Of a DNA stretch of 64,000 bases, positions 5,361 through 51,974 are shown in pieces. The position numbers and the translations under genes are program-made. The stretch is from positions 14,402 through 78,401 of the IMG/VR virus record IMGVR_UViG_3300045988_098110. One strand, 5' to 3'. The notes beneath the pieces were generated by a model. The model ran no database searches and had not been told where the DNA came from. It saw only the letters and a list, made by a program, of their open reading frames with translations. The stretch comes from a virus. Numbering within the stretch: the first letter of the stretch is position 1; every line of letters begins with the position of its first letter.

Positions 5361-6575
5361 ATGAAGTACCGCGTTTACGTAGACACAACGAAAAAGAGGC
5401 AAGACGAGCAAAGCCCGGTCGTGCTAATATTCGAGGACAGTGGAATGAGGTTCAAAATTTCCACGGGCCTGTTCTCTTCCAGGAAGTTCACAGGAAAGGA
5501 GTTTCCAAAAGAAGAGCCCAACCACAAGGCTAAGACTCTCAAACTTGCGGGAAAGCTACTTGACATCGACGAATACCTACTGATGAACAGCAATGTTCCG
5601 TTCAACAAGGCAAAAGAGGAAATCAAGGCGATTTTGAACGGAGAGGGGAACGCCCTGAAGCCAATCACGTTCTACATGGAGGAGCTGGCCAAGACCAAGA
5701 CGCCGAGCACCGCAAAGTTCTATATCAAGACAGCGAGGAAGATCAGGGAGTTCGACCCATCGGCCACCTTCGACACCATAGATGCGGACTGGCTGCAAAA
5801 TTTCGACACGCACATGAAGGAGAACGGGAACACGACTGTCAATGGCCGCGCCATCCACCTTCGCGACATAAAGGCCGTGTTCAACGCCGCCTTGGCCGAT
5901 GAGATAACGACCAAGTACCCATTCAGGAAGTTTAAGATCAAGGCAGACAGCGTCCCCATCAAGAACATAACACTTGAGCAGCTAAGGGAGCTCAGGGATT
6001 GCAAGGTTGAGCCCAACAGCCGCATTTTCCGCGACCTGTTCCTCCTGTCGTTCTACCTTTGCGGCATCAACCCTGTCGATCTGCTGCACCTCACTAAGGC
6101 AAACATCAAGAATGGGCGCATCGTTTATACGAGGAGCAAGACGCACAAGCTGTACGACATACCTCTGCCACCGGAAGCGAAGGAGATTTTCAGGATGTAT
6201 AAGGGGAAAGACTACCTGTTGGAGGTGCTTGACTATTACGGTGATGATTATCTGCATTTCCTGAGCAGATGGAATAAGATGCTGAAAAGAATAGGAAATA
6301 TGAAGATATGCGAGCGTTCGGACGGCAGGAAGGTGCTGAGGATGGGTGAGCCTATATTGCCGAACCTGACTGTTTATTCGGCCAGATACACCTTTGCGAG
6401 CATCGGTGCGGAGCTTGAGATACCGAGAGAGACCATAGCGTTGTGCCTTGGTCACTCTTGGGCCGATGTCACCGCGCATTATATCAGCTATAGCATGAAG
6501 CGTATAGATGATGCGGTAAGGAAGATCATTGACTATGTGAACGCAGACATTTCCAATGAAAATGACGATATATGA
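5361..6575 (+). CDS. int: tyrosine site-specific integrase (Bacteroidales arm-domain type)
   Basis: 404 aa. The N-terminal arm-binding-like MKYRVYVDTTKKRQDEQSPVVLIF, a SAM-like core and the C-terminal catalytic region (TRSKTHK.., ARYTFAS, LGHSWADVTAHYISY) fit the R..HxxR..Y layout. Confidence 0.85.
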   Translation: MKYRVYVDTTKKRQDEQSPVVLIFEDSGMRFKISTGLFSSRKFTGKEFPKEEPNHKAKTLKLAGKLLDIDEYLLMNSNVPFNKAKEEIKAILNGEGNALKPITFYMEELAKTKTPSTAKFYIKTARKIREFDPSATFDTIDADWLQNFDTHMKENGNTTVNGRAIHLRDIKAVFNAALADEITTKYPFRKFKIKADSVPIKNITLEQLRELRDCKVEPNSRIFRDLFLLSFYLCGINPVDLLHLTKANIKNGRIVYTRSKTHKLYDIPLPPEAKEIFRMYKGKDYLLEVLDYYGDDYLHFLSRWNKMLKRIGNMKICERSDGRKVLRMGEPILPNLTVYSARYTFASIGAELEIPRETIALCLGHSWADVTAHYISYSMKRIDDAVRKIIDYVNADISNENDDI

Positions 6576-15228: not shown

Positions 15229-16335
15229 TTATTCTTCCTCCTTTCTGTCGGTGTCTTGGTTATTGTTATTGAGTTCTTTGTAATACTGCTTAATGTCGGA
15301 GTCGCTCATGCCCTTCTCTCTCATGATCCTGTAGTCTGCACTGTCACGGCGAAGGTTCACGCGGTCCTCGTAGACTGTTCGCAGGTTGTAATAAGCGTTA
15401 CGCACGCGCTCAAGGGTGAGCACCTTCCCGGTCGATGACATGATACCCATTTGTTGAAGGGTGTACGACGCTTGCGAGAAGTTGTTTTTCGTTAGCTCTG
15501 TGAAGTTATTTGTGCATTGACGGACAATTGCCCATATCGCTTTGTTACAAGGCTTCTCAGCGGCTTCTTTCTTACGTCTCTCGGCGGCTGCCGTTCGGGC
15601 TGCTGAAAGGTCGCTTTTCTTCGGGCGCCCGAGCTTCGTTACCACCTTTCCGGATTTGGATGAAATAAACTGGCCGTCCTCCTCGAGTTTTTTCTTCCTG
15701 ACATCCAATGCGCTTTGCGTGCGCTCTTGGATTAACTCCTTCTCCATCTGAGCCGAGAAAGAGAAAGCGAACAGGAGCATTTCGTCGATGGCCCGCAAGT
15801 GGGCGCAATCAAGGTCGATGCCCATCTGGACTATGACAAGGCGCACACCTCTTGGCTTCAACTCGTCGTTAACAAACTTGTTGATATCGCTCATGGAGCG
15901 GCCTATGCGGCTAACCTCTGATACGATAAGGGTATCACCCTTCTTCAGCATAGGTAGCACGATCTTTCCAAGGTTTCTGTCCTTGTAGGTCACACCGCCG
16001 CTTACTCCCTCGTCGCTCACCTCTTGCGTGGCTGTCATGTTATGGTCTTTCAACCACTCGTTGACGGTCCTTTCCTGCTGCTCAAGGGTCTGTTTCTCGG
16101 TTGATACTCGGCTATATATGATAACCTTTGGTTTTTTCTCCTCCTCTTCTTTCGCTTTCTTTTCTCGTATGGAAATCTCGTGCTTAACGTTGCATAGCTT
16201 ATCCCTCCTGCAAACGACCTTGCCGCCTATCACATTGTGACAGACGCACTCCTTGCAGTAAGCTTTGTGGTCGGGAGGAATTATGTCGTAAAACTCCTCT
16301 CGTCCGTCCTGTGTTATGCGCTTTGTTAGTTCCAT
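15229..16335 (-). CDS. serine recombinase (resolvase/invertase catalytic domain) with Cys-rich N-terminal extension
   Basis: KVIIYSRVSTEKQTLEQQ...DEGVSGG...GDTLIVSEVSRIGRS is the resolvase N-terminal domain with the catalytic Ser. An N-terminal extension of about 70 aa contains CKECVCH..CRRDKLC. Confidence 0.8.
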   Translation of the reverse strand: MELTKRITQDGREEFYDIIPPDHKAYCKECVCHNVIGGKVVCRRDKLCNVKHEISIREKKAKEEEEKKPKVIIYSRVSTEKQTLEQQERTVNEWLKDHNMTATQEVSDEGVSGGVTYKDRNLGKIVLPMLKKGDTLIVSEVSRIGRSMSDINKFVNDELKPRGVRLVIVQMGIDLDCAHLRAIDEMLLFAFSFSAQMEKELIQERTQSALDVRKKKLEEDGQFISSKSGKVVTKLGRPKKSDLSAARTAAAERRKKEAAEKPCNKAIWAIVRQCTNNFTELTKNNFSQASYTLQQMGIMSSTGKVLTLERVRNAYYNLRTVYEDRVNLRRDSADYRIMREKGMSDSDIKQYYKELNNNNQDTDRKEEE

Positions 16336-16407: not shown

Positions 16408-16866
16408 TTATTTCTTCGGGCTTTCTATTTGGGTGCAAATGGCAACACGCTCGCCGCTCTTTATGAGCTTTGGGAGGTATGTGTCAAGGGCGTGGTGTGG
16501 AAATCCTGCTATCTTTCCAAGCTCTTTTGTGTGGCGATTGGTAAGCGCAATACCAAGGATTTTAGATGCCTTTTCGGCGTCCTCGTTGTAGATTTCATAG
16601 AAATCACCACAACGGAAAAGCAATAAGGCGTCAGGGTGCTTTTCTTTCAGGTCTTTCCATTGCTGGTAAAGGCTTTTGTTCGCTGTCACTGGAGTGTACT
16701 CGCTTTCCGTGTGCTCTATCGAGTCGCTACACATGTAGCTAATCTCTTCCTTCTTGTATCCAAGCTGTGTGAGGTATTGCATAACCTCCTCGCTTGTCCA
16801 GTCGTCCGGACAACCTGTGATCGTGTCGATGGAGGAGTTTCTATAGTTTAAGATTGCAATTTTCAT
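16408..16866 (-). CDS. stand-alone MutS domain I (mismatch-binding domain)-like protein
   Basis: ORF trimmed to ATG 16866 (ATGA overlap with the upstream stop). The C-terminal 90 aa are [45 protein letters not shown]...[30 protein letters not shown]. This aligns with the E. coli MutS N-terminus ([35 protein letters not shown]...[28 protein letters not shown]). Confidence 0.7.
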
Positions 16867-17366
16867 ATTATTTCTGATGTTTGGTTCGCTGGATTTTTTG
16901 CCGCACGAAGGAGTAAAACCCATTGGTCACTGGTAACATACAACTCGAATATGTCGGACTTCTTCCGGCCGCACTCCACGCTCTTTTCCGCAGCGGTACG
17001 CCTGTCTCTGCAAAGAACATACACATCGTTGGTGTCTCTGAAATACCAGTAGCACACGCCAGGGCCATTCAGGAGGAATATCTCTTTGTCACGCTTCCAC
17101 AACTGCTCTCTAAGGAGTAGTTTCTGCCGTTGGATGCACGTTTTGTTGATGTCGCCGGCTTTAAGTGTGGTCACGAACTTGTGCTTGCAACGCTTCTCTA
17201 TCAGCTTGAGGAGGTTGGGGCGCCATGCCTCGTTGTCCACAAATGGGAAGCCTCTGTTCTGGAATGAATACTCCGTGCCGTTAACGCTTACATGTATCTC
17301 GCTTTTGTTCTCGATTGGCGCGTTCTTTACGGCCTCAAGGAGTTTTGAAATCTCTGCTTTTGTCAT
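16863..17366 (-). CDS. hypothetical protein
   Basis: 167-aa ORF, coupled to the MutS-I-like gene. Confidence 0.55.
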
Positions 17367-17708: not shown

Positions 17709-18641
17709 TTAGTCGTCTGAACAGTACGTCCATTTGCGGATCTTCGTTAATCCGTAACGCTTCAGGTAGGAGTCTATCTGCTTCATAAATTTCGCCCGCA
17801 ATATGTACACCGCCCTCAGGTATTTCTCTTTGAGATCGAAGGTCTCCTCCTTGGTTAGCTTGGTAACGCCATCGGTGGTGGCGTAATCCGGGTCGAGGAT
17901 GTAGTAAATAACACCACGTGCTTGATCGCTGTAGCATTTCGCGATGGCTACTTCGTCGCGCCCTTCCAACAACTCCTCGTAACGGCTTACCGTCCTATCG
18001 AACTTCTCAAGGTTCCGGAGCTTAAAGTCCTCCTCGCTGAAAGATTTGCAAGACTCGCTTGCCTCTTCATAGGAGGGACCGTAAAAACTGCTATACCCGA
18101 AACAGAAACTTTTTTCAATCTCTGGTTTGTCGAACTCGAAAAACACCCCGTCGCGCAACTTCATGGCCTTATACAAGCTGTCAGCAAGCCAGCTGCCAGC
18201 GCTCTTCAATATACTCCGCGCCTCTTCGGTCTCGTCATCCAACCAATTGTTACAAGACTTCTTGTTTGCCCGTTTTCCTCTCGCCTGAGCCGTTAAAAAC
18301 TCTTCGATGGCGAATGTATCAGGCGGCCAGCCTTTCGCGTCCAAGAAGTCCGCAAATGAGTCTTGTTTCTTGGTGTTCCAGGTCTTAACTATTGCTAACA
18401 CCTGAAAAATCTCTGGGTCTATCCAAGACTCGGAGTAAAACTCGTCCGGGAGGCACTCTTTATCTTGGAACATGAACTCGGGTTCGTGCTCGTCCTTGTG
18501 CAGCTTTGCGCATGCTTTCAGGAACTCCTCGCCCGTCTTATATTGTGCAAGCTGCATCCAATCGCCATCTATACTCCCGTTGTTGTACTTTCCGTATGTG
18601 CCACAATAAACGGCGGCGTTAAGTATTTCCAATTTTGCCAT
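17709..18641 (-). CDS. ardA: ArdA-like antirestriction protein (N-terminal ArdA domain, long C-terminal extension)
   Basis: Trimmed to ATG 18641. AAVYCGTYGKYNNGSIDGDWMQL...LHKDEHEPEFMFQDKECLP resembles the ArdA N-terminus (Y..LGKYNEGELVGAW.., EYAIHDYE). Confidence 0.55.
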   Translation of the reverse strand: MAKLEILNAAVYCGTYGKYNNGSIDGDWMQLAQYKTGEEFLKACAKLHKDEHEPEFMFQDKECLPDEFYSESWIDPEIFQVLAIVKTWNTKKQDSFADFLDAKGWPPDTFAIEEFLTAQARGKRANKKSCNNWLDDETEEARSILKSAGSWLADSLYKAMKLRDGVFFEFDKPEIEKSFCFGYSSFYGPSYEEASESCKSFSEEDFKLRNLEKFDRTVSRYEELLEGRDEVAIAKCYSDQARGVIYYILDPDYATTDGVTKLTKEETFDLKEKYLRAVYILRAKFMKQIDSYLKRYGLTKIRKWTYCSDD

Positions 18642-18701
18642 AACTGAAAAGATTAAATTTGTTGTTAATGAAAAAGTTGTGCGCTTTCCGTTGTCGCCCA
18701 A

Positions 18702-20440: not shown

Positions 20441-21724
20441 TTACTTAATCATTCCAACAAGGGCGGCGGCGAACCGGTTACCCTTGAGGCTTGAAAGGTT
20501 GACGCTCAATTCTCTAATATCGTCTACTTGCATTCCACGAAGAACGAAGCCGTTCAGGAGGTCGGCGGCGTCCATGTCGTAGTACTTGTTTAGCTTCGTT
20601 ATTGCGCGGTAACCGCAAATAAGTGGGAGTTGCAAGGTAGCGGCGGCCGTTCTCAAGGCGCGCACGAACTCGATAACGTCCGGGTGTTCGCTTGAAATGG
20701 CTTCTTCTATTCGTGGATCATAGTCCACTTTGTAAAAGAAAAAGCGGTCGCGGCTTGATTCGTCCATCTTGTAGCGGCCGCAATACTCCTCCGTGGCACC
20801 CTGGCCGTTCGTGTTACCCGCGGCGACGCAATAGAAATTCTTATGTGCTGCAACCTTACCAACGCCGGGAAAGGTGTAGTAACCGTTTGCGAGGGCGGCG
20901 TTGAGGGCAACCAGGGCTTCAGCCTGGGAGTTATCGCATTCGTCGAGCATGAAAAGGCCGCCCTTTGTCCATGCCTTGTAAAATTCGGTTTCCTCGAATT
21001 CGCCCCCGGCGTTCTTATAGCCTGAAATATCGAATTTTGTAAGAATTGTGTTTTGATAATAGAAATCTACACCCAGGGCGGCGGCGAGCTCCTCGCAAAG
21101 TACGTTCTTTCCAGAGCCCGCGGGGCCGTAAAGGTATATATTTTCGTGAGATCCGAGCATGTTAACCAACATCTTAAAGCCCTTGTCTAAGATTTTAGGA
21201 GTCTCGTGTGTGTGTGTAACGCCGTCGATCGTTACGTTAATGGTCGTACCCGTCCCGGCCTTCTGGGCGGCCTCAAGTTGGTTTTTAAGGTCCTCGATCG
21301 TAGCGGCGGCCTCCTGTTTCGCTGCCTGGTAGCCCGCAAGGCGTTTTGCCTCAAATAAGCCGCCAAGCGCGGTTAACACGCCGTCGGTGCCTTGAGCGGG
21401 CGCCGGGGTGGGAGGAGTTGTCGGTTTTGGTGTGGTCGGTGTGGTGGGTGTTGTGTTCTGTTTTCGCCCGCCCTCGTAGTCGCTGAATGTAACTTCAAGG
21501 GAGCGTCCCTTGCTTACCCAGACAACGCGCGCGCCCGCCTCGTCGATTCGCTCAACTCTCATTTCCTGAGCGCTTGAGCCGTACCGCGGGTGTCCGGGCA
21601 CGCCGTTAAATGTTGAGCCGGCCTCGAGGGTGTCGGTGTGCTCTGCTGCATAGTTCAACACTTGAGCTTCAAATTCGGTAAATCCGCCTTCTTTGCGGAG
21701 TTTACCAATAGATAATTTGCACAT
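20441..21724 (-). CDS. AAA+ ATPase (AAA_5 / MoxR-CobS-like) with N-terminal domain and Pro/Thr linker
   Basis: Walker A YLYGPAGSGKN, Walker B GLFMLDECD and a sensor region CVAAGNTNGQG. The linker is TTPTTPTTPKPTTPPTPAP. Confidence 0.75.
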   Translation of the reverse strand: MCKLSIGKLRKEGGFTEFEAQVLNYAAEHTDTLEAGSTFNGVPGHPRYGSSAQEMRVERIDEAGARVVWVSKGRSLEVTFSDYEGGRKQNTTPTTPTTPKPTTPPTPAPAQGTDGVLTALGGLFEAKRLAGYQAAKQEAAATIEDLKNQLEAAQKAGTGTTINVTIDGVTHTHETPKILDKGFKMLVNMLGSHENIYLYGPAGSGKNVLCEELAAALGVDFYYQNTILTKFDISGYKNAGGEFEETEFYKAWTKGGLFMLDECDNSQAEALVALNAALANGYYTFPGVGKVAAHKNFYCVAAGNTNGQGATEEYCGRYKMDESSRDRFFFYKVDYDPRIEEAISSEHPDVIEFVRALRTAAATLQLPLICGYRAITKLNKYYDMDAADLLNGFVLRGMQVDDIRELSVNLSSLKGNRFAAALVGMIK

Positions 21725-21787
21725 GATAGATAGATATTTAATTTGTTAATAATTCCAAATTAGTTTTTTTGCCAGAATAAAATAACC

Positions 21788-21870
21788 TATCTTTGCACCG
21801 CGTTAGGTCCTTGATAGATTTAATTTTATCGAGGCCGCCCGGTTAGCTATTTGTTAGCCGGGCTTTTTTA
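21788..21870 (+). ncRNA. candidate small RNA (promoter box, two hairpins, U-tract)
   Basis: TATCTTTG at 21788-95. Hairpin CCTTGATA/TATCGAGG at 21809-34. Terminator-like GCCCGG/CCGGGC at 21837-63 followed by TTTTTT. Confidence 0.3.
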
Positions 21871-22056
21871 TTGTACCCCGCAGCGCTTCGATCGCTGCAC
21901 GTTAGCCGCCCGAGAATATACCAATTTTGGAGGGGTCATAGGCTTTCATTTATCATGTAATTCATTTCGTTACTCTAACTTTTCACTACTCACTTAACAT
22001 GTTTCAGCGCTTCCGAATTATATAGCTCCCAGGTTTCCCAGTTCTAAAAGGGTCCG

Positions 22057-22073
22057 TATATATATATATATAT
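22057..22073. repeat. (TA)8 microsatellite
   Basis: tatatatatatatatat, followed by the hairpin ACGGATAA-atga-TTATCCGT plus a T-run (22080-22105). Confidence 0.9.
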
Positions 22074-22462
22074 GAGAGAAACGGATAAATGATTATCCGT
22101 TTTTATTACAAGTCTTTCCCGTGCCTACACGGGGCTTCAGTGTATCAATATATCAATGAGCGCTTGTCGTGGGATATAGGATTTCTTTTGCGTTAGGCCC
22201 TTGTGTCCTGTTGACGATTGCAAAGGTACGCACTTTTTCAACACGCCCAAAACTTTTCACGCGTTTTTTCGCAAAAATGCGCTTTTTTCTTTGCTTTTTC
22301 GGTTTAGTGTGCGTTTGCCCCTTTCGTTTTGTAATTTCGGATATAGCAATTGCACCCTTAATGTGGATTATTAGGCATTATTATCGGTGTATTAGTATTG
22401 TATCACACCGATATAGCGCTGCACGTCGCCCCTGGTACGTGTTTATTAGATGTTTAGCACAT

Positions 22463-22546
22463 GCCACGTGCGTGTAATCACGTACGCATGTACGCTCGTG
22501 TATGTGCGTACGCATGCGTTAATATGCGTACACGTACGCGCACGCC
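22463..22546. repeat. cluster of GTACGC/GCGTAC motifs
   Basis: CGTACGCATG occurs twice (22491, 22507), with further GCGTAC/GTACGC copies within 84 nt. Confidence 0.7.
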
Positions 22547-22677
22547 TTAAATCCGCCCGTTTGCGTCCGTCTCGCGCTCTCTACACTCGCCCGCCCTTAT
22601 TGTACCACACACGCGCCCGGATCGCCTTAAGCACACGATAACACCCCCCCTACAGTCCGACGCCGAAAATACGCAAA

Positions 22678-22708
22678 GGTAGCAGCATGGTAGCAGCTTG
22701 GTAGCAGA
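22678..22708. repeat. three direct GGTAGCAG(C) repeats with 11-bp phasing
   Basis: GGTAGCAGCatGGTAGCAGCttGGTAGCAGa, starting at 22678, 22689 and 22700. Confidence 0.9.
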
Positions 22709-22726
22709 TAGAAAACTCGGAGGAGG

Positions 22727-23035
22727 TTTTGGGTTTTCTGAGGTGTTTTTACTCCTACTCCTTGTAAGTTTTTAAGATGTTCTATTTCTTCGTGCTTTTC
22801 GCCGCCATATAATGTACGCCCGTTTCGCTTTTTCGCTTACTTTTGCGGTTAAACGTCCGTTTTTGTCGCAAATAACATCCTTATTTTCAGGGTTTTATGC
22901 GTTTTTACCCCACCCTCCCCCGATGTGAGGCGCCCACCCCGACCCCGCTCACTTCCAAAATTTTTTTATTTTTTTTCAGGATTTGCACTCTATATTTTGT
23001 AAGTTTTTACGAGTGCTTTTATTTTTGGGTTTTCT
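22727..23035. repeat. dispersed duplicated 13-mers in T-rich DNA
   Basis: TTGTAAGTTTTTA at 22762 and 22997. TTTTGGGTTTTCT at 22727 and 23023. TTCTATTTC and GTGCTTTT are also duplicated. Confidence 0.7.
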
Positions 23036-23485
23036 ATTTCGTTTTGCTCGTTTTTGGGCTTTGCGCACTTAGGGTCTATCTACGCCCCTGTTTTTGCACG
23101 AACGATGGATTATGTCACCGATGGACTTTCGAGGTCGTGTGCAGCGTTTTTCGCACATTCTTGTCGCATCCTTCTGTTCGGTCGTTGGTTTACGTGTTTT
23201 TGCGGCAAACTATGCTCATGTTGTCGTTTAATGCTCGTTTTGCAAGTTCGGGTTTAGCATTTGCACGGTATCGCTCATGGGTTGGTAAAGCCGTTCAGCT
23301 GCGTCAGCCTTTCCTCTTAGGGGGCCAGTATACTGTAAGTATACGGGGGTTGAGGTCCCCTACTACGGCTGCGTGTGTGCGAACCTTGTTTTAGTGCAGG
23401 TTATTATATAATAAACTTGACAAAAAACTTTTTGCGTTGTGAAATTTTGTTGCCCTGGATTTTTGGTTTATTCGGGAGGAAAAGT

Positions 23486-23493
23486 TATTTTTG
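23486..23493 (+). promoter_or_regulatory. -7 box TATTTTTG for the rightward operon
   Basis: Exact TAnnTTTG located 33 nt upstream of ATG 23526. Confidence 0.5.
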
Positions 23494-23525
23494 CGCTTAT
23501 GATTAACCAAACATGTTGATGCGTC

Positions 23526-24083
23526 ATGGGAGCAGGGAAGTTTCATATTGCGAGATACGTCATGGACGAGGCCACTGGTGCTTACGTCGCCGATGGTGCC
23601 GTGAGGAGCTTGGAGGACGACTTCGGCTTTTGCCGGTACAAGTCAATCACGGGCATTAACGCCATTGGCAAGCAGAAGGGTGTTTACACCGAGAGCTATC
23701 CGGAGAGTGACAGCCTTCGTGTTTACGTTGACCCATCAGCGAGGCAGGAGGCCACCAGCTCAACGCTTTCTGTCTGCGTGTTTGGTTCTAACCCTTCACT
23801 CCCATCAACGCTGAGCACCGAGGAGTTGATTAAGTCCGCCGAGGATAGCTGGCATGAGCTTGTTGGTTTCCTCCGTGGTGGCCTAATCCTTTGGACCGAC
23901 GATTACAGGCAGCGAAAGGCGTTGTTTGTCTTACAGGACGCCATCGAGCCGACAACTGACAGCATCAAGGGCTTGCCGTACTTGGATTGCCAAGTTAAGC
24001 TGCAAAACATCTTTGGCGAGACCTTTGGGAGTGCCGATGATACGATTGAGAACTGGCTCAAGCTGGGAGGAAAGGGGGCCTGA
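23526..24083 (+). CDS. hypothetical protein
   Basis: 185-aa ORF, the first gene of the plus-strand operon. Confidence 0.6.
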   Translation: MGAGKFHIARYVMDEATGAYVADGAVRSLEDDFGFCRYKSITGINAIGKQKGVYTESYPESDSLRVYVDPSARQEATSSTLSVCVFGSNPSLPSTLSTEELIKSAEDSWHELVGFLRGGLILWTDDYRQRKALFVLQDAIEPTTDSIKGLPYLDCQVKLQNIFGETFGSADDTIENWLKLGGKGA

Positions 24084-27956: not shown

Positions 27957-30900
27957 TTAGTTTAAGAAAACCTTCAATCCTGCTCCTCCCTTGGAGTGTC
28001 CGAGTTTCATGACGCTGCTCCAGTTGTCGCAAACCTGCCGCAAGTACCCAACTTGCTGCTGCATTAAACTCACCATGATATTGTTGGCGCCGTCTCCTGA
28101 CTGTGACGCAATACCGCCAAGGCGCTGCAACAGGGTGTCCTTGATAACCCTTACGTCCGCCTGTTGCGTCGCAAGGTAGTAGCGTATCGAGTTGATGATG
28201 CTCTCCAATGCCTGAGCGGTTGCTTCGGTCACAGATTGAATACCCTGTTGCAGAGATGAGATATTGGAGGTTCCTGTAGGATTTACTCCAAGCATCTCAA
28301 ACATCTTTTTCAGATATTCGTTGTAAGCTTCAAGGTTTTGGTCTTTCATCTTCTTGATTTCCGCAAGCTCATTTGCGGTGACATCGAGTCCGTTGTTTCC
28401 TCCCTCGCTACCTTTGGTCACCGCCTTGTCAATGCTTTCCAATATCGGCTTGATGAACTTTTCTGATGCTCGCTGCGTAACCTGCTTTGTAAGCAAGTTG
28501 TTGAAATATTCGTCAAACTTCTCGTTAAGTGCATCAAGCGAGTCGCTGCCTTCATTGAAAGCATCAACCCAAGCGTTCGCAAAGGCTTCTGCTGCCGACT
28601 TATAGTTGGCCTGTGAACCAAAACCTCCAAGTTCCTCTGTGAGCGTCTCTGAAAGCTCTGTTATGGTGTCGTTGATAGAGTCTATCTCTGAACGCCAGCT
28701 TTGGATCTTGTCTTCGTCTGCATGCTTTCTCCCTTGCTCAGCCTTAATCATGGCTTCATAGGCCGCTTTCTCTTTCTCCAAGGCTTCAACAGACTGCTGG
28801 TTGTACTTATACAGTCGCTCTGTGCTGAAAGCGTCATCCATTGATTTTTTCAGCTCCTCGTATCTCTTTTGGAGTTTGGTTATGGCTCGCTCCTGCCGCT
28901 TAATCTCTTTGTCTATGCTACTTTCGTTGTTGAATAGCTTAACAACACCAGTAAGAGCTCCAACAGCGCCGGAGACAACTCCTGCATAGTTTCCGCTATA
29001 GCTATAGTATGAACCTACCGCTTGACCGATGCTGTCAACAATGCCTAACGTGTTTTGCAGTTGTTCATCGGAGCCACCGAGGGCTTCAAACAAGCCACTG
29101 AACGCCGATGCCATTGACGAAACAATATCAGTGATGTCTGTAACTGACTTGGAGAACTTTGCCTTCGCTTGCTCTTCTTCGGTCATAATCGTTCCGAGCT
29201 TCGCAATCTGTTGGTCTGTCAGGTTGAGTTGGCTTTTGAGGCTATCCCTGATGCCTTTATTGATAGACAACCTGAATGCTGCGGCCTTTGCCTCGTCGCT
29301 CCCTTTCCCGTTAATCTTCTCTATCTCGTTGTACTGCAACTCCAGCAACTCAACAAGTCTGTTAGATGCCTCAAGCTGAACCTTTAGGTTCTGACTTTGG
29401 TCGTTAAGCTCAACGTATCTGGCAACACCACCATTCTTTTTCAAGTCCTTACCAGCCTTAATCATTTCCTTAAGACCACTTGTGAACGCCTTGAATGGAT
29501 TACGGGAGTTGCGAACATCGTCAACTTTCTTGATTTGGTCCACGACGGCCTTCAACTGTGTTGGGTCGAGGTTCTTCAAGTTGTCGCGCATATCACGAAG
29601 GCGTGTGGCCATTGCGTCGAGCGCCTTAGAGGAAACTTGGTCAAGATTCTCAAATAGTCGTACATACATGTCGCTATTCTGAAAATCCTTCCATTTGTTT
29701 TCGTCAGTCTTACGCTTGTACTGCGTATCAAGATTCTCTTGTAGCTGCTTCTGCAAATCAGGAGTCTTTGATATTTCAGTATTGTTTTGCAGTTTGTTTC
29801 TTTCTGCAATATACCAACTGTCAAGCTGGAGTTGGTCGCTAAGCTGCTGCTTGTATGCCTTAATCAGCTCTTGCGCCTGATCCACTTGGTCTTGATGCTC
29901 CTGCTTGTTGACATTCTTAACACGGCTCTGGTAATCCTTATAAATGTCGCTATCACCAAAGCGCTCCTTGAGAACATTTGCCGTGTTGGCAATGTCGTTG
30001 TTATATCGCTTGATAACATCCTCTCCCCATTTGTTGATGTTGCTTCCGTACGTACTCTCGTAATCCTTGAAGATGTACTTGTTGAACTCGTCGTCAATGG
30101 CATTGCGCACATCATCGAAAGACGTAGCGATGTTGCCAAACATAGACTTGATATATCTGTCTGACAAGCCCTCTCCTTTGAGCTTCTTGTAAAGCTGCAA
30201 CCCGTTGAAGGCCTCGTCGATGTTGCTCGAGATACCTTCGCGCATCTTTTCATACTCCTTCTCTGAGATATGGAGCCTGATTTCTGCAGAAGTACGGAAC
30301 GCACCGCTTTTCTTGACGAGTTCTTTGTATTTAGCGCCAAGTTTTTCTATCTCTCTTGCTGTTGTGGCATCATCAGGAAGAATAGAGTTGGCGTTAAGAC
30401 CTACGTTCTGTGCAGCCAGCTTGAACATGGAGCGTGTCTTTGTTAGGGCTTGCTCCTTGCTCTCTGACTTTAGCAATGTGTTGTACTGCTGATTCATATC
30501 CTTCAGGAGTGATATGCGCTCTTGAAGGATGTCACGCTGCGCCTTGTTATTGGTATGAGTTTTTCTATTCTTTTTCTCAAAAGGATCAATACCAAATAAA
30601 TTCTTAGAAGAAATTGTATTTTCTCGCATTCGGCTTTTAGCCAAAGCCATTAACTGCTTTTTTGTAATAGTTTTTGCATCTGCAAAAAGAGTGCCTTGTA
30701 GTAAGTCTTTAAGCTTACCTACTACATTGTATTCTTTAACAGTAGCCTTTGATACGTTTTTGTAGAATTGCTTCCATTCTTTTGCAGTTTCAGCAAACTC
30801 TTTGCTTTTATCGAGATACTCCTTAATACTACTTGTGTTCTTGATTTCGTTAACAGATAGAGTAATCCCGTATCTTTTCTCCGCAAAGAACCTGCTAATA

Positions 30901-33900
30901 AAGTCATCAACCCAACTAACTTCTTTTTGTGTGTTATTTTTGTCAATATTAACCTTGATACTATAAGCCTTATAGAGCATATCTTTTTCGATATCGCCCC
31001 ATCCTCTTTTTAGAGCTTCGTTATCTATTTGTATTTTTAGTTTCTTTTTCGAAGCCTCGTCTTTGTATTTGCTTACGTCACCAAAAACACTTTGTGCCTC
31101 TTTGCGCACTTCTTCCAAATTGTTTATGTAGGTTTCGTAAGCCAACGTGAATTTAGATAATTGCTCATCCGCATTTGCACCAATACCCCAATCATAGCCA
31201 TTGTTCCCTGTACCTCCAAGAATACCGACCATGTTTTGCTTTGAGCCAAACCATCCGCTCTGTATGTATCCAATTTCTTTTAATGCATTGGCAACTTTAG
31301 CGTAGTAATCGAGAAGGTCTTGTCCCTTTTGAGGACCAGCTGAGAGCTGCTTGAACATTTCCTTTTGGCTATCAGTAAGATTTACGCTTTCTTTTGACAC
31401 CTGCGCAAGAATAGAACGTATATCGTCACCTTTTTGCAAAAACTCACCCATTGAAGAAGTATATTCTTGCATATCAGTTTCAATATCATCGTCCCCCATA
31501 AGCCAGCCTTTCTTTTTGTTAGCCTCGTACTTTGCATCAATAGCACGCATATTATCAAGGAACTCTTGATAGTCTTTAAGGAATATGTCATATTGTTTCC
31601 TCGCTTCTTCTTCGGAAATGTTCACCCCTATTGTTACCTCGAAGCCCTTCTGATTCATTTCTTTTACAAGATCTTGTAAGGCTTTCTGGATATTTGTTTT
31701 AGCTTCAGCATCTATCTCTTCAACCCTAACCTGTGCCGTATAGTATTCTTCGGTGTTTTTAGCCATTGCTTCTTTGTACTCGTTGTTAACACTTACGAGT
31801 TCCTGAACCAAAGCTATAACGGAAGTTAATGCAGCAAGAGGTAAAGATGCTTTGAAGGTATTTCCTAATGCGGTAAAGGCTGAACCTAATTTGCCTGTAT
31901 CACCTGTTAGTGCAGCCATAAGAGCCTTGAATACGCCAAGCCTTTTATGCGAAGCCATAATATTTGCAGCTGTTTGTCCCCAAGCTCCGTTCGTAAGCTT
32001 TGTTGTGACATAGATAGAAGCAAGAAGTCCTGCGAATATTTTCGCTACATTAACAATAGTTCTCCAACTATTCAAAAGTTCTGTTACACTACTAATCAGG
32101 CCTTTGAATGTACCTTCGTTAGACTTGCCAATGTCGTTGAGCATCACATCAAAAGCATCCTTCAAGTTGGAAATCTTACCTTGGAGAGTTTCTGCCTGGA
32201 TCTCTTGCATATTGTAAAAGATCCCTCCTTTGTCGGTCATGCGTTGAAATATGGCCTCAACATCCTCAAATGTAACCTTTCGCTTAGAAATCATATCCAC
32301 GATTTGCGCCGTGGTGTATGCCTCACCCTTGACCTCCTTGAAATAATCCTGAAGCTCTCCGTATATATTGATACCAGCCTCGGTAAACTGGCGCACCTCA
32401 GAGCCGCGGAGGTATGCAGCGGCCTTGACTTGTCCGTAAGCAAGGATAAGCCGACTCAGGTCAACACCAAGTCCAGCCGACACATCGGCAAGGCGTTTGG
32501 TTGTGTCGTAAAGTTTATCAGACTCTATGCGGTATGCAGAGAGTTGGCGCGTGTAGTCTACCAAATCCTTGATGCGGAATGGCGACTTAACGGCAAGCTC
32601 AACTGTCTTGTTGAAGATTTCGTCAGCCTTTGTCTTGTTCTGCAAGATAGCTTCAAGTGAACGCTCTGAAAGCTCGAACTGGCCTCTCACCTCCGCGACT
32701 TGCCCTATAAAGTTCTTGATTGTATCAAGAGAGAAAGTGAAGGCAACACGTTGTGCCAAGCGTGACAGATAGCCTGCCATGTATGATGTTTGCTCTCCTA
32801 AGTTACGTGCGTTCACTCCTGCCTCTTTCAAAACCTTGGAGTGCTGCTTTATGGCCTCGTTTACGGATGCGAGATTCTGTTTGTAGTTCTTGTCGGTCGT
32901 ATTAAGGCTAAGCCTTGCCTGCTGCAACTCCTTTATGGCTGCAACATGCTCTCGCAATGTGGCTGCGCTGCCTGTATTTGTGAGTACGGCATTTGTGTCG
33001 GCGTAGTATGCAGAGCCACTATTTGCCCTTTGACTTGCCGCCTTGGCTTCTTGGAGTACCTTGTTATGGCGCTCTATTGATGCGTTGAGCGTGTCAAGTT
33101 TTTGCTTGTATTCAGCATCCGTAACAGATAGTTTTCTCTTGGCTGCTTCAAGGTACTGCACGGCCTTTGCTTGTCTGTTTAGCGTGTTAGCAGACTCCGA
33201 GAAGCTTAATGCCCCTTGGTACGTTGTGTTTTGCTTATAGTTGCTTGCTTGGTAAGCCTTTTGCTTTGCGGTGTACTCTTTTTGTGCTGCGGCCTCAACA
33301 CGCCTCGCTTTTGCTTCTTCTGCCTTGGCTTCTGTTTCGGCGGCCTTCTTCGACTCAGCTTCTTTCTTTGCCCGGAGCTGAATTGACTCTTTGAGCATCT
33401 GCATCTCTGCTTTGTAGCGAGCGTCAGACATGGGGAAATCTTGGCCGTACTGCTTAAGCGACTTCGCCAAGGCAACCTGTTGGTTAATAGCTTGGTTGTT
33501 TTGGATAATGGCCTGTTGCTTCTCTCTCAGAGATGCGATAACCTGCCTGTTGGTCTCGTACTCCTTGACGTTTGCCGCATAGAGAGCCTTTTCGTCATTA
33601 TAAACGACGCCACCTTTTCCTTCTTTAATGCGCTGCTGAGTGTACTCGTATTGGCGCATAGACTTCGTTAACTCCTCCTGTCGCTTGGTGGTCTTGTCGA
33701 TCTGTGCTTGAATGTTTTGCCAGTCGGACACAGATTTTGATAAGTCAGGAGAAGATGCGGCTTTGTGTTGGGATGCCGCCATACGGTCGATGTGTTGCGC
33801 AGTCTGACTTACGACGTCGCCCATCTTTGAAAAACCTTGTGTTACCTTGGCTGTTCCAAGGCTTGACAGGCTGCCTGACATTGTGCCTGCTGCCGTCTTG

Positions 33901-34106
33901 ATGGTTCCAAGCTTTTGAATTATTTGGTCGAGCGCACCGATGAACCCATCTGTCGAGCCCTTCATAGACTGACATGATGCGTTTATAACAGCGGCGGTTT
34001 GCTCCGATGTTTTTTGCAACTTCTCCAACCTTTCGTCAGCCTCTTTTATCTTCTTTAAGGCTGACTCGGGTATGAGAAGGACGCTTCCTAATGCAGATTC
34101 GCTCAT
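27957..34106 (-). CDS. tail tape measure protein
   Basis: 2049 aa, largely coiled-coil. The TMP core motif is LSERSLEAILQNKTKADEIFNKTVELAVKSPFRIKDLVDYTRQLSAYRI...AGLGVDLSRLILAYGQVKAAAYLRGSEVRQFTEAGI. It follows the chaperone pair. Confidence 0.9.
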   Translation of the reverse strand: MSESALGSVLLIPESALKKIKEADERLEKLQKTSEQTAAVINASCQSMKGSTDGFIGALDQIIQKLGTIKTAAGTMSGSLSSLGTAKVTQGFSKMGDVVSQTAQHIDRMAASQHKAASSPDLSKSVSDWQNIQAQIDKTTKRQEELTKSMRQYEYTQQRIKEGKGGVVYNDEKALYAANVKEYETNRQVIASLREKQQAIIQNNQAINQQVALAKSLKQYGQDFPMSDARYKAEMQMLKESIQLRAKKEAESKKAAETEAKAEEAKARRVEAAAQKEYTAKQKAYQASNYKQNTTYQGALSFSESANTLNRQAKAVQYLEAAKRKLSVTDAEYKQKLDTLNASIERHNKVLQEAKAASQRANSGSAYYADTNAVLTNTGSAATLREHVAAIKELQQARLSLNTTDKNYKQNLASVNEAIKQHSKVLKEAGVNARNLGEQTSYMAGYLSRLAQRVAFTFSLDTIKNFIGQVAEVRGQFELSERSLEAILQNKTKADEIFNKTVELAVKSPFRIKDLVDYTRQLSAYRIESDKLYDTTKRLADVSAGLGVDLSRLILAYGQVKAAAYLRGSEVRQFTEAGINIYGELQDYFKEVKGEAYTTAQIVDMISKRKVTFEDVEAIFQRMTDKGGIFYNMQEIQAETLQGKISNLKDAFDVMLNDIGKSNEGTFKGLISSVTELLNSWRTIVNVAKIFAGLLASIYVTTKLTNGAWGQTAANIMASHKRLGVFKALMAALTGDTGKLGSAFTALGNTFKASLPLAALTSVIALVQELVSVNNEYKEAMAKNTEEYYTAQVRVEEIDAEAKTNIQKALQDLVKEMNQKGFEVTIGVNISEEEARKQYDIFLKDYQEFLDNMRAIDAKYEANKKKGWLMGDDDIETDMQEYTSSMGEFLQKGDDIRSILAQVSKESVNLTDSQKEMFKQLSAGPQKGQDLLDYYAKVANALKEIGYIQSGWFGSKQNMVGILGGTGNNGYDWGIGANADEQLSKFTLAYETYINNLEEVRKEAQSVFGDVSKYKDEASKKKLKIQIDNEALKRGWGDIEKDMLYKAYSIKVNIDKNNTQKEVSWVDDFISRFFAEKRYGITLSVNEIKNTSSIKEYLDKSKEFAETAKEWKQFYKNVSKATVKEYNVVGKLKDLLQGTLFADAKTITKKQLMALAKSRMRENTISSKNLFGIDPFEKKNRKTHTNNKAQRDILQERISLLKDMNQQYNTLLKSESKEQALTKTRSMFKLAAQNVGLNANSILPDDATTAREIEKLGAKYKELVKKSGAFRTSAEIRLHISEKEYEKMREGISSNIDEAFNGLQLYKKLKGEGLSDRYIKSMFGNIATSFDDVRNAIDDEFNKYIFKDYESTYGSNINKWGEDVIKRYNNDIANTANVLKERFGDSDIYKDYQSRVKNVNKQEHQDQVDQAQELIKAYKQQLSDQLQLDSWYIAERNKLQNNTEISKTPDLQKQLQENLDTQYKRKTDENKWKDFQNSDMYVRLFENLDQVSSKALDAMATRLRDMRDNLKNLDPTQLKAVVDQIKKVDDVRNSRNPFKAFTSGLKEMIKAGKDLKKNGGVARYVELNDQSQNLKVQLEASNRLVELLELQYNEIEKINGKGSDEAKAAAFRLSINKGIRDSLKSQLNLTDQQIAKLGTIMTEEEQAKAKFSKSVTDITDIVSSMASAFSGLFEALGGSDEQLQNTLGIVDSIGQAVGSYYSYSGNYAGVVSGAVGALTGVVKLFNNESSIDKEIKRQERAITKLQKRYEELKKSMDDAFSTERLYKYNQQSVEALEKEKAAYEAMIKAEQGRKHADEDKIQSWRSEIDSINDTITELSETLTEELGGFGSQANYKSAAEAFANAWVDAFNEGSDSLDALNEKFDEYFNNLLTKQVTQRASEKFIKPILESIDKAVTKGSEGGNNGLDVTANELAEIKKMKDQNLEAYNEYLKKMFEMLGVNPTGTSNISSLQQGIQSVTEATAQALESIINSIRYYLATQQADVRVIKDTLLQRLGGIASQSGDGANNIMVSLMQQQVGYLRQVCDNWSSVMKLGHSKGGAGLKVFLN

Positions 34107-51952: not shown

Positions 51953-51974
51953 CAAGCATCAAATCCTATAAAGT

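What the first reader, a model, noticed from the sequence alone, without database searches (positions are those of the whole stretch)
21725..23525. 1.8-kb ORF-free, strand-skewed, repeat-dense region between two divergent operons
Genes elsewhere in this phage are separated by 0-60 nt, yet here 1.8 kb has no ORF of 60 aa or more on the minus strand. The plus strand carries only two low-complexity, T-driven ORFs.

The region holds many distinct elements:
- a promoter/hairpin/terminator unit at 21788-21870
- (TA)8 at 22057
- a 9-bp inverted repeat TATCGGTGT/ACACCGATA around 22381-22412
- a GTACGC/GCGTAC cluster with CGTACGCATG twice (22463-22546)
- three GGTAGCAGC repeats phased at exactly 11 bp (22678-22708), i.e. 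on one helix face
- duplicated 13-mers (TTGTAAGTTTTTA, TTTTGGGTTTTCT) about 235-295 bp apart in T-rich DNA
- a GTATAC-tgtaa-GTATAC palindrome (23328-23344)

This is the architecture expected of a replication origin, a packaging (pac/cos) recognition region, a partition-type centromere or a long non-coding transcript. No small terminase gene and no replication initiator gene is recognisable in the window, so the proteins that would read these repeats are unidentified.
Basis: partly seen in the sequence, partly recalled or inferred. Interest (0 to 1): 0.75.

Follow-up and report, generated by a model that had tools for sequence, protein, structure and literature searches.

The report
Phage control region with antisense RNA
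The 1.8-kb gene-free stretch is a conserved regulatory region of an uncultured gut Bacteroidales phage family, and its clearest part is a small antisense RNA of about 72 nt whose first bases match, and co-evolve with, the start of the long leader of the neighbouring operon; nothing points to a packaging site, and a replication origin is neither shown nor excluded.

Summary
Window 21725-23525 has no credible gene under any genetic code, is T-rich on the + strand, and holds nearly all the listed repeats. A gap of 1.8-3.2 kb sits upstream of the same gene in every relative found, with four collinear conserved blocks.

The conserved parts are:
- Host-type Bacteroides promoters.
- A small RNA gene (promoter, 5' seed, hairpin, terminator; about 21797-21870, + strand).
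- A leftward promoter (22251-22221) giving a leader of about 490 nt to the AAA_5 ATPase gene.
- A structured + strand element (23318-23362).
- A T-tract/C-tract block (22838-22976).
- Alternating purine-pyrimidine tracts.

The key result is that the sRNA's 5' 12-17 nt recur in the first ~35 nt of the leftward leader. Sixteen seed/target variants co-vary, including three single-base double changes between near-identical strains. Internal mismatches are G·U-compatible only in the sRNA/leader sense.

I read this as RNA-RNA control of the leftward operon. It resembles P4 CI RNA, P1 c4 or plasmid countertranscripts, but the target lies 0.4-3 kb from the sRNA gene.

A packaging site or centromere has no support. 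An origin, possibly RNA-primed, remains an open rival. Nothing has been tested for expression.

The parts
21768..21795 (+). Promoter of the small RNA. The Bacteroides-type -33 TTTG is at 21768-21771, followed by a 16-nt spacer and the -7 box TATCTTTG at 21788-21795.
   Evidence: A TAnnTTTG box sits 1-5 nt before the seed in W, L001, L002, L004, L010 and the L011 clade. The consensus itself is from my own knowledge (Bayley et al. 2000).
21797..21870 (+). Predicted small RNA of about 72 nt. It has a 5' seed GCGTTAGGTCCTTG (21800-21813), hairpin 1 (21806-21836), a terminator hairpin (21837-21863) and a T6 run.
   Evidence: The fold is -35.9 kcal/mol with z = -7.3. The terminator was found. The same layout recurs in five other lineages with unrelated sequence. 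Expression was not tested.
21964..21992 (-). Block A. On the minus strand it is a tandem AGTAGYGAA motif with a 16-nt period. It lies inside the leftward leader.
   Evidence: It is conserved at 85-89% in 8 of 10 lineages. No consensus structure was found. It is unique in the window. Its function is unknown.
22057..22073 (.). (TA)8.5 microsatellite, lineage-specific.
   Evidence: It does not fall in any block aligned with relatives.
22118..22133 (-). Leader hairpin CCCGTG-ccta-CACGGG.
   Evidence: Stem changes are compensated in L001 (CCACGG-ccta-CCGTGG) and L004 (GCGGC-tacg-GCCGC).
22190..22203 (-). Target of the sRNA seed. The + strand reads GCGTTAGGCCCTTG, so the leftward RNA carries its complement about 12-30 nt after the predicted start.
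   Evidence: These are the only two copies in the 64-kb window. Sixteen co-varying seed/target variants were found. The cognate duplex for W is -26.5 kcal/mol.
22221..22251 (-). Leftward operon promoter. The -33 TTTG runs 22251 to 22248, then a 19-nt spacer, then the -7 box TACCTTTG from 22228 to 22221. It gives a 5' leader of about 490 nt to the AAA_5 gene.
   Evidence: The -7 box is conserved in W, L001, L002, L004, L006, L010 and L011. The -33 TTTG at 19 nt is present in all of these except L010. W has no other minus-strand TAnnTTTG between this promoter and 21724.
22260..22291 (+). A/T-rich hairpin CGCGTTTTTTCGCAAAAATGCG followed by a T run, just upstream of the leftward promoter.
   Evidence: It is partly conserved in block B. 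Its role is unknown.
22382..22413 (.). 9-bp inverted repeat TATCGGTGT / ACACCGATA with 14 nt between the arms.
   Evidence: No aligned relative covers this part.
22465..22545 (.). Alternating purine-pyrimidine tract. 76 of 81 nt lie in four perfect runs.
   Evidence: Such tracts occur in the gap of 8 of the 9 lineages examined: a 99-nt tract of 12-bp tandem repeats in L010, 47 nt in L001 and 34 nt in L009. They are 3-28 times denser than in the flanking DNA.
22674..22708 (-). Three GGTAGCAG repeats in 11-bp phase, overlapping a minus-strand TACCTTTG box (22681 to 22674) that has no -33 element.
   Evidence: Only L009 has a GGTAGC-containing tandem repeat at a similar place.
22838..22976 (+). 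Block C. It holds AAACGTCCGTTTTTGTCGCAAATAA (22851-22875), a C-rich tract (22907-22948) and CCAAAATTTTTTTATTTTTTTT (22955-22976).
   Evidence: It aligns in all 11 gap sequences compared (9 distinct lineages). Conservation is of primary sequence, with almost no covariation. It is the best candidate for a DNA-level site.
22996..23027 (+). Candidate distal rightward promoter: TTTG, a 20-nt spacer, then TATTTTTG.
   Evidence: L010 and L011 have similarly placed boxes, but not at the same aligned position.
23318..23375 (+). Block D. The outer stem pairs 23318-23326 with 23354-23362. It encloses hairpin GTATAC-tgtaa-GTATAC (23328-23344) and a G-run, and is followed by the conserved CTACGGCTGCGTG.
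   Evidence: The inner stem has seven different, perfectly complementary versions. The outer stem has compensatory and G·U changes, and the wobbles work only on the + strand. It is unique in the window. All 44 IMG/VR contigs carrying its 19-mer are relatives.
23462..23493 (+). Proximal promoter of the rightward operon: TTTG, a 20-nt spacer, then TATTTTTG. It ends 32 nt before the ATG at 23526.
   Evidence: A TAnnTTTG box starts 15-48 nt before the start codon in eight of nine lineages examined; L004 is the exception.

Best explanation
The gap is the non-coding control region between the leftward operon and a rightward operon. The leftward operon holds AAA_5 ATPase, DUF7192, ArdA, methylases and a recombinase. 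The rightward operon begins with a tail-tube/Dit-like protein.

**Shown by sequence comparison**
1. A host-type promoter at 22251-22221 would drive a leftward transcript with an untranslated leader of about 490 nt.
2. A small RNA gene (about 21797-21870) is encoded antisense inside that leader, with its own promoter and intrinsic terminator.
3. The first 12-17 nt of this RNA are the exact complement of a segment within about the first 35 nt of the leader. This seed/target pair changes in step from phage to phage while the flanks stay constant.
4. A + strand structured element (23318-23362) is conserved.
5. A primary-sequence block with a long T-tract (22838-22976) is conserved.

**Inferred**
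- The small RNA base-pairs with the 5' end of the nascent or finished leader and lowers expression of the leftward operon.
- The route is more likely RNA decay or Rho-dependent termination than an intrinsic attenuator, because no minus-strand terminator is seen in the leader.
- Many seed variants exist among almost identical strains. I therefore think the pair acts as a specificity code: a resident phage silences incoming phages of the same type, and matched seed/target changes escape this.
- The direction of regulation and the biological role are inference only.
For: **The gap is conserved**
- A gap of 1.8-3.2 kb lies upstream of the same gene in all relatives, although that protein is only 48-70% identical.
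- The gaps share four collinear blocks.

**Promoters**
- TAnnTTTG boxes occur at 3.3 per kb in the gap against 0.84 per kb in the window.
- The leftward -7 box is conserved in 7 lineages, six of them with the -33 TTTG at 19 nt.

**The small RNA**
- It folds at -35.9 kcal/mol with z = -7.3.
- The layout of promoter, seed, hairpin and terminator recurs in 6 lineages with unrelated sequence.
- Its position varies from 0.4 to 2.9 kb from the target, but it is always intergenic and antisense in the leftward unit.

**Seed/target matches**
- Exact or one-mismatch matches of 12-19 nt occur in 16 variants.
- Cross-lineage best matches are 7-11, with one of 13.
- In the L011 clade the promoter and terminator are invariant and variation is concentrated in the seed.
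- That clade shows three single-base changes mirrored in the leader 0.8-1.0 kb away: G/C in L100 against L109, C/G in L011 against L115, and A/G in L095 against L127.
- All four internal mismatches (W, L002 and L104 are T/C; L010 is G/A) form G·U in the sRNA(+)/leader(-) sense. None forms A·C.
- Cognate duplexes average -25.0 kcal/mol against -13.8 (sd 4.3) for non-cognate pairs.
- The seed occurs only at these two places in the 64-kb window.

**Block D**
- The nested fold is the minimum-energy structure in 9 of 11 variants.
- The + strand fold is at least 1.7 kcal/mol more stable than the minus-strand fold in 8 of the 11 variants and within 0.3 kcal/mol in the other three.
Against: - There are no expression data of any kind. 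Transcription starts and ends are predicted from consensus motifs.
- L006 and L007 lack a recognisable sRNA module. They carry four copies of an AAGATAC motif, which looks more like protein-binding sites.
- One non-cognate pair (L001 sRNA with the L002 leader, -28 kcal/mol) is predicted to bind better than L001's own pair at -24.
- No intrinsic terminator that the pairing could switch is seen in the leader.
- The middle 0.5 kb is left without a tested function. So are block A, block C, the purine-pyrimidine tracts and the strong T-run bias.
- The sRNA is in any case fully complementary to the leader where its own gene lies, so the need for a second, displaced site is not obvious.
Confidence: 0.6

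Rival explanations
1. The gap holds the phage replication origin. There are two versions. In the first, block C (a conserved binding-type motif, a C/G-rich tract and a long T-tract) is an unwinding region with an initiator site. In the second, the origin is ColE1-like and RNA-primed: the long leftward untranslated RNA is the pre-primer, and the small RNA is the copy-number and incompatibility regulator that pairs with its 5' end.
For: - Block C is conserved as primary sequence without RNA covariation and contains an A/T tract of 20 nt or more.
- No replication initiator was recognised among the roughly 45 window ORFs scanned against Pfam or PHROGs.
- A long untranslated RNA of about 0.5 kb, plus a small RNA complementary to its 5' end with type-specific co-variation, is the logic of ColE1 RNA II / RNA I.
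- RNA-based prophage origins in non-coding regions are documented in mycobacteriophages (PMC7157519).
- Lineage-specific tandem repeats lie in the middle of the gap.
Against: - There is no DnaA-box cluster, only one site with a mismatch.
- No iteron family is conserved in position or sequence among relatives.
- The leftward RNA runs straight into protein-coding genes with no other promoter in between, so it is most simply an mRNA leader.
- In L010 the sRNA lies beyond two genes, 2.9 kb from the target. This does not fit a compact origin.
- The phage has an integrase and a repressor, so plasmid-type copy control is not obviously needed.
- GC skew follows gene orientation only.
Confidence: 0.18
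2. The co-varying 12-17-bp sequences are not RNA pairing partners. They are two DNA operators for a lineage-specific DNA-binding protein, which co-regulates the small convergent promoter and the leftward promoter.
For: - Both copies lie just downstream of promoters, where repressors often bind.
- L006 shows a repeated AAGATAC motif, one copy of which lies in the leader, with no sRNA-like module.
- Phage immunity regions commonly diversify operators together with repressors (own knowledge).
Against: - The sequences are not palindromic. They are in direct orientation while the two promoters converge.
- In near-identical strains only the two short patches differ, with no mosaic swap of a neighbouring gene.
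- All four internal mismatches are transitions in the one direction that keeps G·U pairing.
- One copy always starts within 1-5 nt of a -7 box and is followed by a hairpin and an intrinsic terminator.
Confidence: 0.1
3. The region is the DNA packaging recognition site (pac or cos), or contains the physical genome ends.
For: - Three independent assemblies end inside the gap. L008 and L009 end about 1.15 kb upstream of the gene and L139 ends 596 nt upstream.
- L008 starts about 20 nt after the position of the purine-pyrimidine tract in its close relative L011.
Against: - The large terminase and portal genes are 16.6 kb away.
- Three contigs of about 76-79 kb carry the gap internally at different distances from their ends.
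- The three break points differ from one another and coincide with low-complexity tracts that break assemblies anyway.
Confidence: 0.04
4. The region is a partition centromere or another array of protein-binding repeats such as GGTAGCAG x3 or the 13-mers.
For: - Three repeats lie in 11-bp phase.
- Repeated k-mers are modestly above chance.
Against: - These repeats are absent from relatives.
- No ParA/ParB-like family appeared among the ORFs I scanned against Pfam or PHROGs.
- The GGTAGCAG array overlaps a promoter-like box and is only 30 bp long.
Confidence: 0.03
5. The region is coding after all, through missed small genes or an alternative genetic code.
For: Plus-strand ORFs of 102 and 165 aa exist.
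Against: - All three stop codons occur in all six frames.
- The ORFs have no family hits.
- A frameshifting indel is present in a relative at 92% nt identity.
- Conservation is frame-independent.
- Gene callers placed only 30-50-aa calls in the gaps of relatives.
Confidence: 0.02

Closest known systems
Satellite phage P4 immunity: CI RNA pairing with seqA/seqC in the leader of the operon it controls
   Same: - A small stable RNA is encoded inside the untranslated leader of the operon it regulates.
- Short complementary sequences in that leader are its targets.
- Regulation acts on the leader rather than through a protein repressor (P4 facts from PMC4825925).
   Different: - P4 CI RNA is processed from the same-strand leader transcript. 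Here the RNA has its own convergent promoter and terminator.
- P4 acts by premature termination, whereas no intrinsic terminator is seen here.
- There is no sequence or structure similarity, since Rfam gave no hit.
- The host phylum differs.
P1/P7 c4 antisense RNA controlling the antirepressor (immI heteroimmunity)
   Same: A short RNA-RNA complementarity acts as a type-specific determinant. The two partners differ between related phages by matched changes (own knowledge).
   Different: - c4 is co-transcribed upstream of its target.
- The target here is the start of a long leader of an ATPase/anti-restriction operon, not an antirepressor ribosome-binding site.
- There is no Rfam C4 match.
Plasmid countertranscripts (ColE1 RNA I/RNA II, R1 CopA/CopT, pT181) and RNA-based prophage origins of mycobacteriophages
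   Same: - A small antisense RNA from a convergent promoter acts on the 5' part of a long untranslated RNA.
- Specificity is set by a few nucleotides, which is the basis of incompatibility groups (own knowledge; ColE1 and the phage precedent are described in PMC7157519).
   Different: - In those systems the antisense RNA is encoded directly opposite its target, so co-variation is automatic.
- Here the conserved pairing site is 0.4-2.9 kb from the sRNA gene, so two separate mutations are needed.
- Replication priming is not shown here.
Iteron/DnaA-type replication origins and pac/cos sites
   Same: Both are long non-coding stretches with an A/T tract and repeats, lying between divergent transcription units.
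   Different: - No DnaA-box cluster is present.
- Repeats are not conserved.
- The terminase gene is distant.

Membership tests
Base-pairing small regulatory RNA with its own transcription unit | Promoter of the host type directly upstream | tested here: met
   A TAnnTTTG box lies 1-5 nt before the seed in 6 lineages. A -33 TTTG at 16-20 nt is seen in W, L001, L002, L004 and most of the L011 clade.
Base-pairing small regulatory RNA with its own transcription unit | Intrinsic terminator defining a short RNA | tested here: met
   A GC-rich hairpin plus T-run lies 55-95 nt after the -7 box in W, L001, L002, L004, L010 and the L011 clade.
Base-pairing small regulatory RNA with its own transcription unit | Complementarity to a target RNA that is kept through co-variation | tested here: met
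   Sixteen seed/target variants were found, including three mirrored single-base changes. Wobble direction is consistent with RNA pairing.
Base-pairing small regulatory RNA with its own transcription unit | The RNA is expressed and changes target expression | not testable with these tools
   No transcriptome or genetic data are available.
Rfam families C4, IsrK/P4 seqA-type and other described phage sRNAs | Match to the family covariance model | tested here: not met
   There were no matches at gathering score in the window and only chance-level hits at E up to 1 in 21600-23650. No relevant match was found in five related loci.
Iteron/DnaA-type replication origin | Array of three or more regularly spaced direct repeats, kept at the same place in relatives | tested here: not met
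   W has only three 11-bp repeats. Relatives have unrelated repeats or none.
Iteron/DnaA-type replication origin | Cluster of DnaA boxes | tested here: not met
   One site with one mismatch lies in the gap, and the window as a whole is barely above chance.
Iteron/DnaA-type replication origin | A/T-rich unwinding element | tested here: inconclusive
   The conserved CCGAAAATTTTTTATTTTTTT tract could serve. Unwinding cannot be tested here.
Iteron/DnaA-type replication origin | Replication starts here | not testable with these tools
   This needs marker-frequency mapping or an autonomous-replication assay.
pac/cos packaging site | Adjacent to the terminase genes | tested here: not met
   TerL is at 40172-41779 and portal at 42371-43927.
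pac/cos packaging site | Virion DNA ends map here | tested here: inconclusive
   Three contigs end in the gap, but at three different low-complexity places. Three long contigs span it. No read data are available.
Partition centromere | Repeat array next to parA/parB-type genes | tested here: not met
   No ParA/ParB family appeared among the ORFs I scanned. This was not an exhaustive scan of every ORF. The repeats are not conserved.

The most novel reading that the evidence does not exclude
Gut Bacteroidales phages of this lineage carry an RNA-based self/non-self code. It consists of a 12-17-nt seed at the 5' end of a small RNA and a physically separate matching site at the start of the leftward operon leader.

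The pair diversifies under selection so that each type silences, or is incompatible with, only its own kind. This would be an RNA-programmed heteroimmunity or incompatibility system in a phylum without Hfq or ProQ. It may be coupled to an RNA-primed origin in the same gap.
Probability: 0.3. Interest if true: 0.75.

Novelty: new variant of a known kind. Interest (0 to 1): 0.6.

Why it matters
**Biology**
- Regulatory RNAs of Bacteroidota phages are almost unknown.
- This lineage is uncultured but common: 44 IMG/VR contigs carry the block D motif.
- A seed/target pair that co-varies between near-identical strains is a natural record of compensatory evolution. It points to type-specific interference between related phages in the gut.
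- That is directly testable by seed-swap experiments.

**Practical uses**
- The matching rule gives a sequence-only way to sort these phages into predicted immunity or incompatibility types.
- It also offers a compact, reprogrammable RNA switch for Bacteroides genetics.

**Annotation**
- A large "empty" gap in a phage genome can be a dense stack of promoters and RNA elements rather than an origin or packaging site.

Tried and rejected
**Alternative readings tested and dropped**
- Stop-codon recoding (codes 4 and 15, or TAA as sense) was rejected because every frame has all three stops.
- Known RNA families and tRNA/tmRNA gave nothing.
- The mir-297/466/3149 hits are artefacts of the purine-pyrimidine tract.
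- A DnaA-box cluster is absent.
- Phased A/T tracts (static curvature) gave only a weak ~10.5-bp signal, which I do not claim.
- A conserved divergent + strand promoter near 22300 reaches consensus only in L001, so I dropped it.
- A second paralogous sRNA starting at 22190 was rejected, because L001 has no promoter-like box there.
- A switchable intrinsic attenuator in the leader was not found.
- RNA structure in block A and block C has no support.
- The 32-nt repeat 22324-22355 / 23235-23266 is not a conserved pair. Both copies occur only in W.

**Searches that gave nothing**
- DNA similarity of the gap to deposited phages found no match.
- The 185-aa protein has no match in deposited phages or in PDB sequences.
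- The genome-contig scan with the block D 19-mer returned only chance hits in high-GC Actinomycetota.
- A search for more W-like lineages with the leftward-promoter 20-mer found only L001's contig.
- The metagenome scan with the 185-aa protein added one close relative (L139) that covers only the right third of the gap, plus copies of L001.
- Additional copies of block D or the seed elsewhere in the window do not exist.
Full report

Window 21725-23525 lies between the start of a minus-strand gene (20441-21724, a 427-aa AAA_5/CobS-like ATPase) and a plus-strand gene (23526-24083, 185 aa).

- The longest minus-strand ORF in the gap is 51 aa. The plus strand has ORFs of 102, 63, 165 and 67 aa.
- All six frames contain TAA, TAG and TGA, so no alternative code yields a gene.
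- The two largest ORFs have no Pfam or PHROG hit.
- A relative with 92% nucleotide identity (L139) has a net +1 indel inside the 165-aa ORF.
- The similarity of relatives to the gap appears in several frames and on both strands at once. That is what nucleotide-level conservation looks like.
- The + strand is T-rich: 35.8% T against 20.8% A, 23 runs of T5 or longer against 2 of A5 or longer, and 27 TTTG against 10 CAAA.
- All listed elements exist, with small coordinate and spelling corrections.
- Once (TA)8.5 is set aside, repeated 11- to 13-mers exceed dinucleotide shuffles only modestly. The fraction of shuffles reaching the observed count is 0.02-0.04.
- No tRNA and no Rfam family is present.

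**2. Context**

The window is a temperate tailed phage.
- It encodes an S24 repressor (4340-5020), a tyrosine integrase (5361-6575), a Rha/KilAC protein, ArdA (17709-18701) and a small serine recombinase.
- It also encodes a tape-measure protein (27957-34106, minus strand), a major head protein, TerL (40172-41779) and portal.
- TerL is only about 27% identical to the nearest deposited phages, Bacteroides phages LoVEphage and C3_41T2LP.
- The promoters fit the Bacteroides TTTG / TAnnTTTG type. That consensus is from my own knowledge (Bayley et al. 2000).
- The 185-aa protein has no sequence family. Its AlphaFold model (pLDDT 87.8) has a tail-tube/distal-tail-protein fold.
- The rightward unit therefore starts with a likely virion protein. 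It is not an obvious replication module.

**3. Relatives**

I found homologues of the 185-aa protein (48-98% identity) and fetched their contigs.
- Wherever the contig reaches far enough, a gene-poor gap of 1.77-3.17 kb precedes the gene.
- T exceeds A on the + strand in all of them.
- The gaps are collinear and share four blocks:
  - A: 21941-22011
  - B: 22109-22351
  - C: 22830-23054
  - D: 23301-23411

**4. Left third: convergent promoters, a small RNA and a long leader**

Six TAnnTTTG boxes lie in the gap, 3.3 per kb against 0.84 per kb in the window.

*The leftward promoter.* One minus-strand box (TACCTTTG, 22228 to 22221) has a -33 TTTG at a 19-nt spacing. The -7 box is conserved in seven lineages, and six of them keep the -33 element. 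No other minus-strand box lies between it and the ATPase start codon. The leftward operon would therefore carry a leader of about 490 nt, or 0.5-0.65 kb in relatives.

*The small RNA.* Facing this promoter, a + strand promoter (TATCTTTG, 21788-21795) is followed by a two-hairpin RNA of about 72 nt ending in a strong intrinsic terminator. The fold is -35.9 kcal/mol with z = -7.3.

*The seed and its target.*
- The sequence right after the -7 box, GCGTTAGGTCCTTG (21800-21813), recurs once in the 64-kb window. It appears as GCGTTAGGCCCTTG at 22190-22203.
- That copy sits 16 nt from the leftward -7 box, so the leftward RNA carries its complement about 12-30 nt after the predicted start.
- The same arrangement exists in L001, L002, L004/L005, L010 and the L011/L008 clade, each time with a different sequence. 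The arrangement is promoter, 1-5 nt, a 12-19-nt seed, a hairpin, a terminator, and a copy of the seed 13-25 nt from the leftward -7 box.
- The sRNA gene is 0.4-0.6 kb from the target in W, L001, L002 and L004. It is about 0.8-1.1 kb away in the L011 clade and 2.9 kb away in L010, beyond the ATPase and DUF7192 genes.
- It is always intergenic and antisense within the leftward unit.

*Strength of the co-variation.*
- Best cross-lineage matches are 7-11, with one of 13.
- By my estimate, a chance exact 12-mer between a 25-nt and a 66-nt window has probability about 5e-5.
- Within the L011 clade, the sRNA promoter and terminator are invariant and variation is concentrated in the seed.
- Each variant is mirrored in the leader, including three single-base changes: L100 against L109, L011 against L115, and L095 against L127.
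- The four internal mismatches are all transitions that give G·U in the sRNA(+)/leader(-) sense. None gives A·C. With equal odds for either direction, that outcome has probability 1/16.
- Predicted duplexes average -25.0 kcal/mol for cognate pairs and -13.8 (sd 4.3) for non-cognate pairs. There is one exception, L001 sRNA with the L002 leader.

*Exception.* L006 and L007 have no such module and show a repeated AAGATAC motif instead.

**5. Other leader features**

- A hairpin at 22118-22133 keeps its stem through three compensated versions.
- Block A is a tandem AGTAGYGAA motif on the minus strand. It is conserved as sequence in 8 of 10 lineages, has no consensus structure, and is unique in the window.
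- No minus-strand intrinsic terminator is found in the leaders of W, L011 or L001.

**6. Right part**

*Block D.*
- The inner stem occurs in seven different, perfectly complementary versions.
- The outer stem shows compensatory and G·U changes in W, L139, L006, L010 and L115. Those wobbles would be A·C mismatches on the minus strand.
- The nested fold is the minimum-energy structure in 9 of 11 variants. The + strand fold is at least 1.7 kcal/mol more stable than the minus-strand fold in 8 of the 11 variants and within 0.3 kcal/mol in the other three.
- It is single-copy in the window.
- All 44 IMG/VR contigs carrying its flanking 19-mer are relatives.
- It lies about 120 nt upstream of the proximal promoter (23462-23493). 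That promoter is positionally conserved 15-48 nt before the start codon.
- A block D RNA would therefore need an upstream promoter. The box at 22996-23027 is a candidate but is not strictly conserved.

*Block C.* It is conserved as primary sequence: AAACGTCCGTTTTTGTCGCAAATAA, a C-rich tract, and CCGAAAATTTTTTATTTTTTT. It shows almost no covariation. It is the best candidate for a site that works as DNA.

**7. Middle part**

- The segment 22352-22830 does not align with relatives, but one property is shared. Alternating purine-pyrimidine tracts occur in the gap of 8 of the 9 lineages examined.
- In W, 76 of 81 nt at 22465-22545 lie in such runs. L010 has a 99-nt array of 12-bp tandem repeats, L001 has 47 nt and L009 has 34 nt.
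- These tracts are 3-28 times denser than in the flanking DNA.
- Three assemblies break inside the gap, at three different low-complexity places.
- I regard this as a repeat effect. A hypervariable or Z-DNA-prone tract between divergent promoters is possible but untested.

**8. Mechanism and rivals**

*Best reading.* The small RNA pairs through its 5' end with the start of the leftward leader and lowers expression of that operon. No switchable terminator is visible, so decay or Rho-dependent termination is more likely than intrinsic attenuation.

*Why repression.* There are many seed types among near-identical strains, and each needs two separate mutations. This argues for selection on specificity. 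It fits trans-repression of incoming phages of the same type better than activation. This step is inference.

*Rivals.*
- An origin in the gap (confidence 0.18). This could be block C, or a ColE1-like system in which the leader is a pre-primer. RNA-based prophage origins are known in mycobacteriophages (PMC7157519).
- DNA operators for a variable protein (0.10).
- A pac/cos site (0.04).
- A centromere (0.03).
- Missed coding sequence (0.02).
- The origin rival and the best reading are not mutually exclusive.

**9. Comparison and novelty**

- The logic is that of P4 CI RNA with seqA/seqC (PMC4825925), of P1/P7 c4, and of plasmid countertranscripts (own knowledge).
- It differs in three respects:
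  - The RNA has its own convergent transcription unit.
  - The conserved pairing site is displaced 0.4-2.9 kb from the RNA gene, so co-variation is not automatic.
  - The hosts are Bacteroidales.
- No described RNA family matches.
- I rate it a new variant of a known kind.
- The main limit of this work is that every transcript is predicted. No expression or genetic test was possible.

Noticed in passing
window 23526-24083: The first gene right of the gap (185 aa) has no Pfam, PHROG or PDB-sequence match. Its model (pLDDT 87.8) has a tail-tube/distal-tail-protein fold. In relatives it heads an operon that also holds methylase, DUF3310 and dUTPase genes.
   Followed up: partly
window 22465-22545; L010 5044-5142; L001 4807-4853; L009 829-862: Alternating purine-pyrimidine tracts are a shared property of the gap in 8 of the 9 lineages examined, although their sequences differ. 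In L010 the tract is a 12-bp tandem array of about 8-10 copies. The L008 contig starts about 20 nt after the tract position of its relative L011.
   Followed up: partly
window 43946-51952 and 47000-58000: A 2668-aa ORF with collagen-type repeats lies in a 52-61% GC stretch. The rest of the window is mostly 40-50% GC.
   Followed up: no
L006 1627-1677 (-) and 3077-3127 (-): Two near-threshold matches to the Rfam DUF2693-FD RNA motif score 42 and 34.6 bits against a gathering score of 44.5. They lie in or close to intergenic spots of the leftward unit of a relative that lacks the sRNA module.
   Followed up: no
window 22324-22355 and 23235-23266: A 32-nt direct repeat (84% identity) brackets the central 0.9 kb. 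Each copy has homologues in some relatives, but both copies together occur only in this window.
   Followed up: partly
window 16408-16923, 17709-18701, 15229-16335: The leftward unit carries a small protein with a MutS domain I, an ArdA anti-restriction protein and a 368-aa serine recombinase. A separate tyrosine integrase and S24 repressor lie at 4.3-6.6 kb.
   Followed up: no
L139 1-600 against window 22930-23525: In the closest relative, substitutions cluster in 23055-23110 and 23215-23300. Block C's T-tract, block D and the proximal promoter are almost invariant. The only change in block D is in the hairpin loop (TGTAA to TGAAA).
   Followed up: yes
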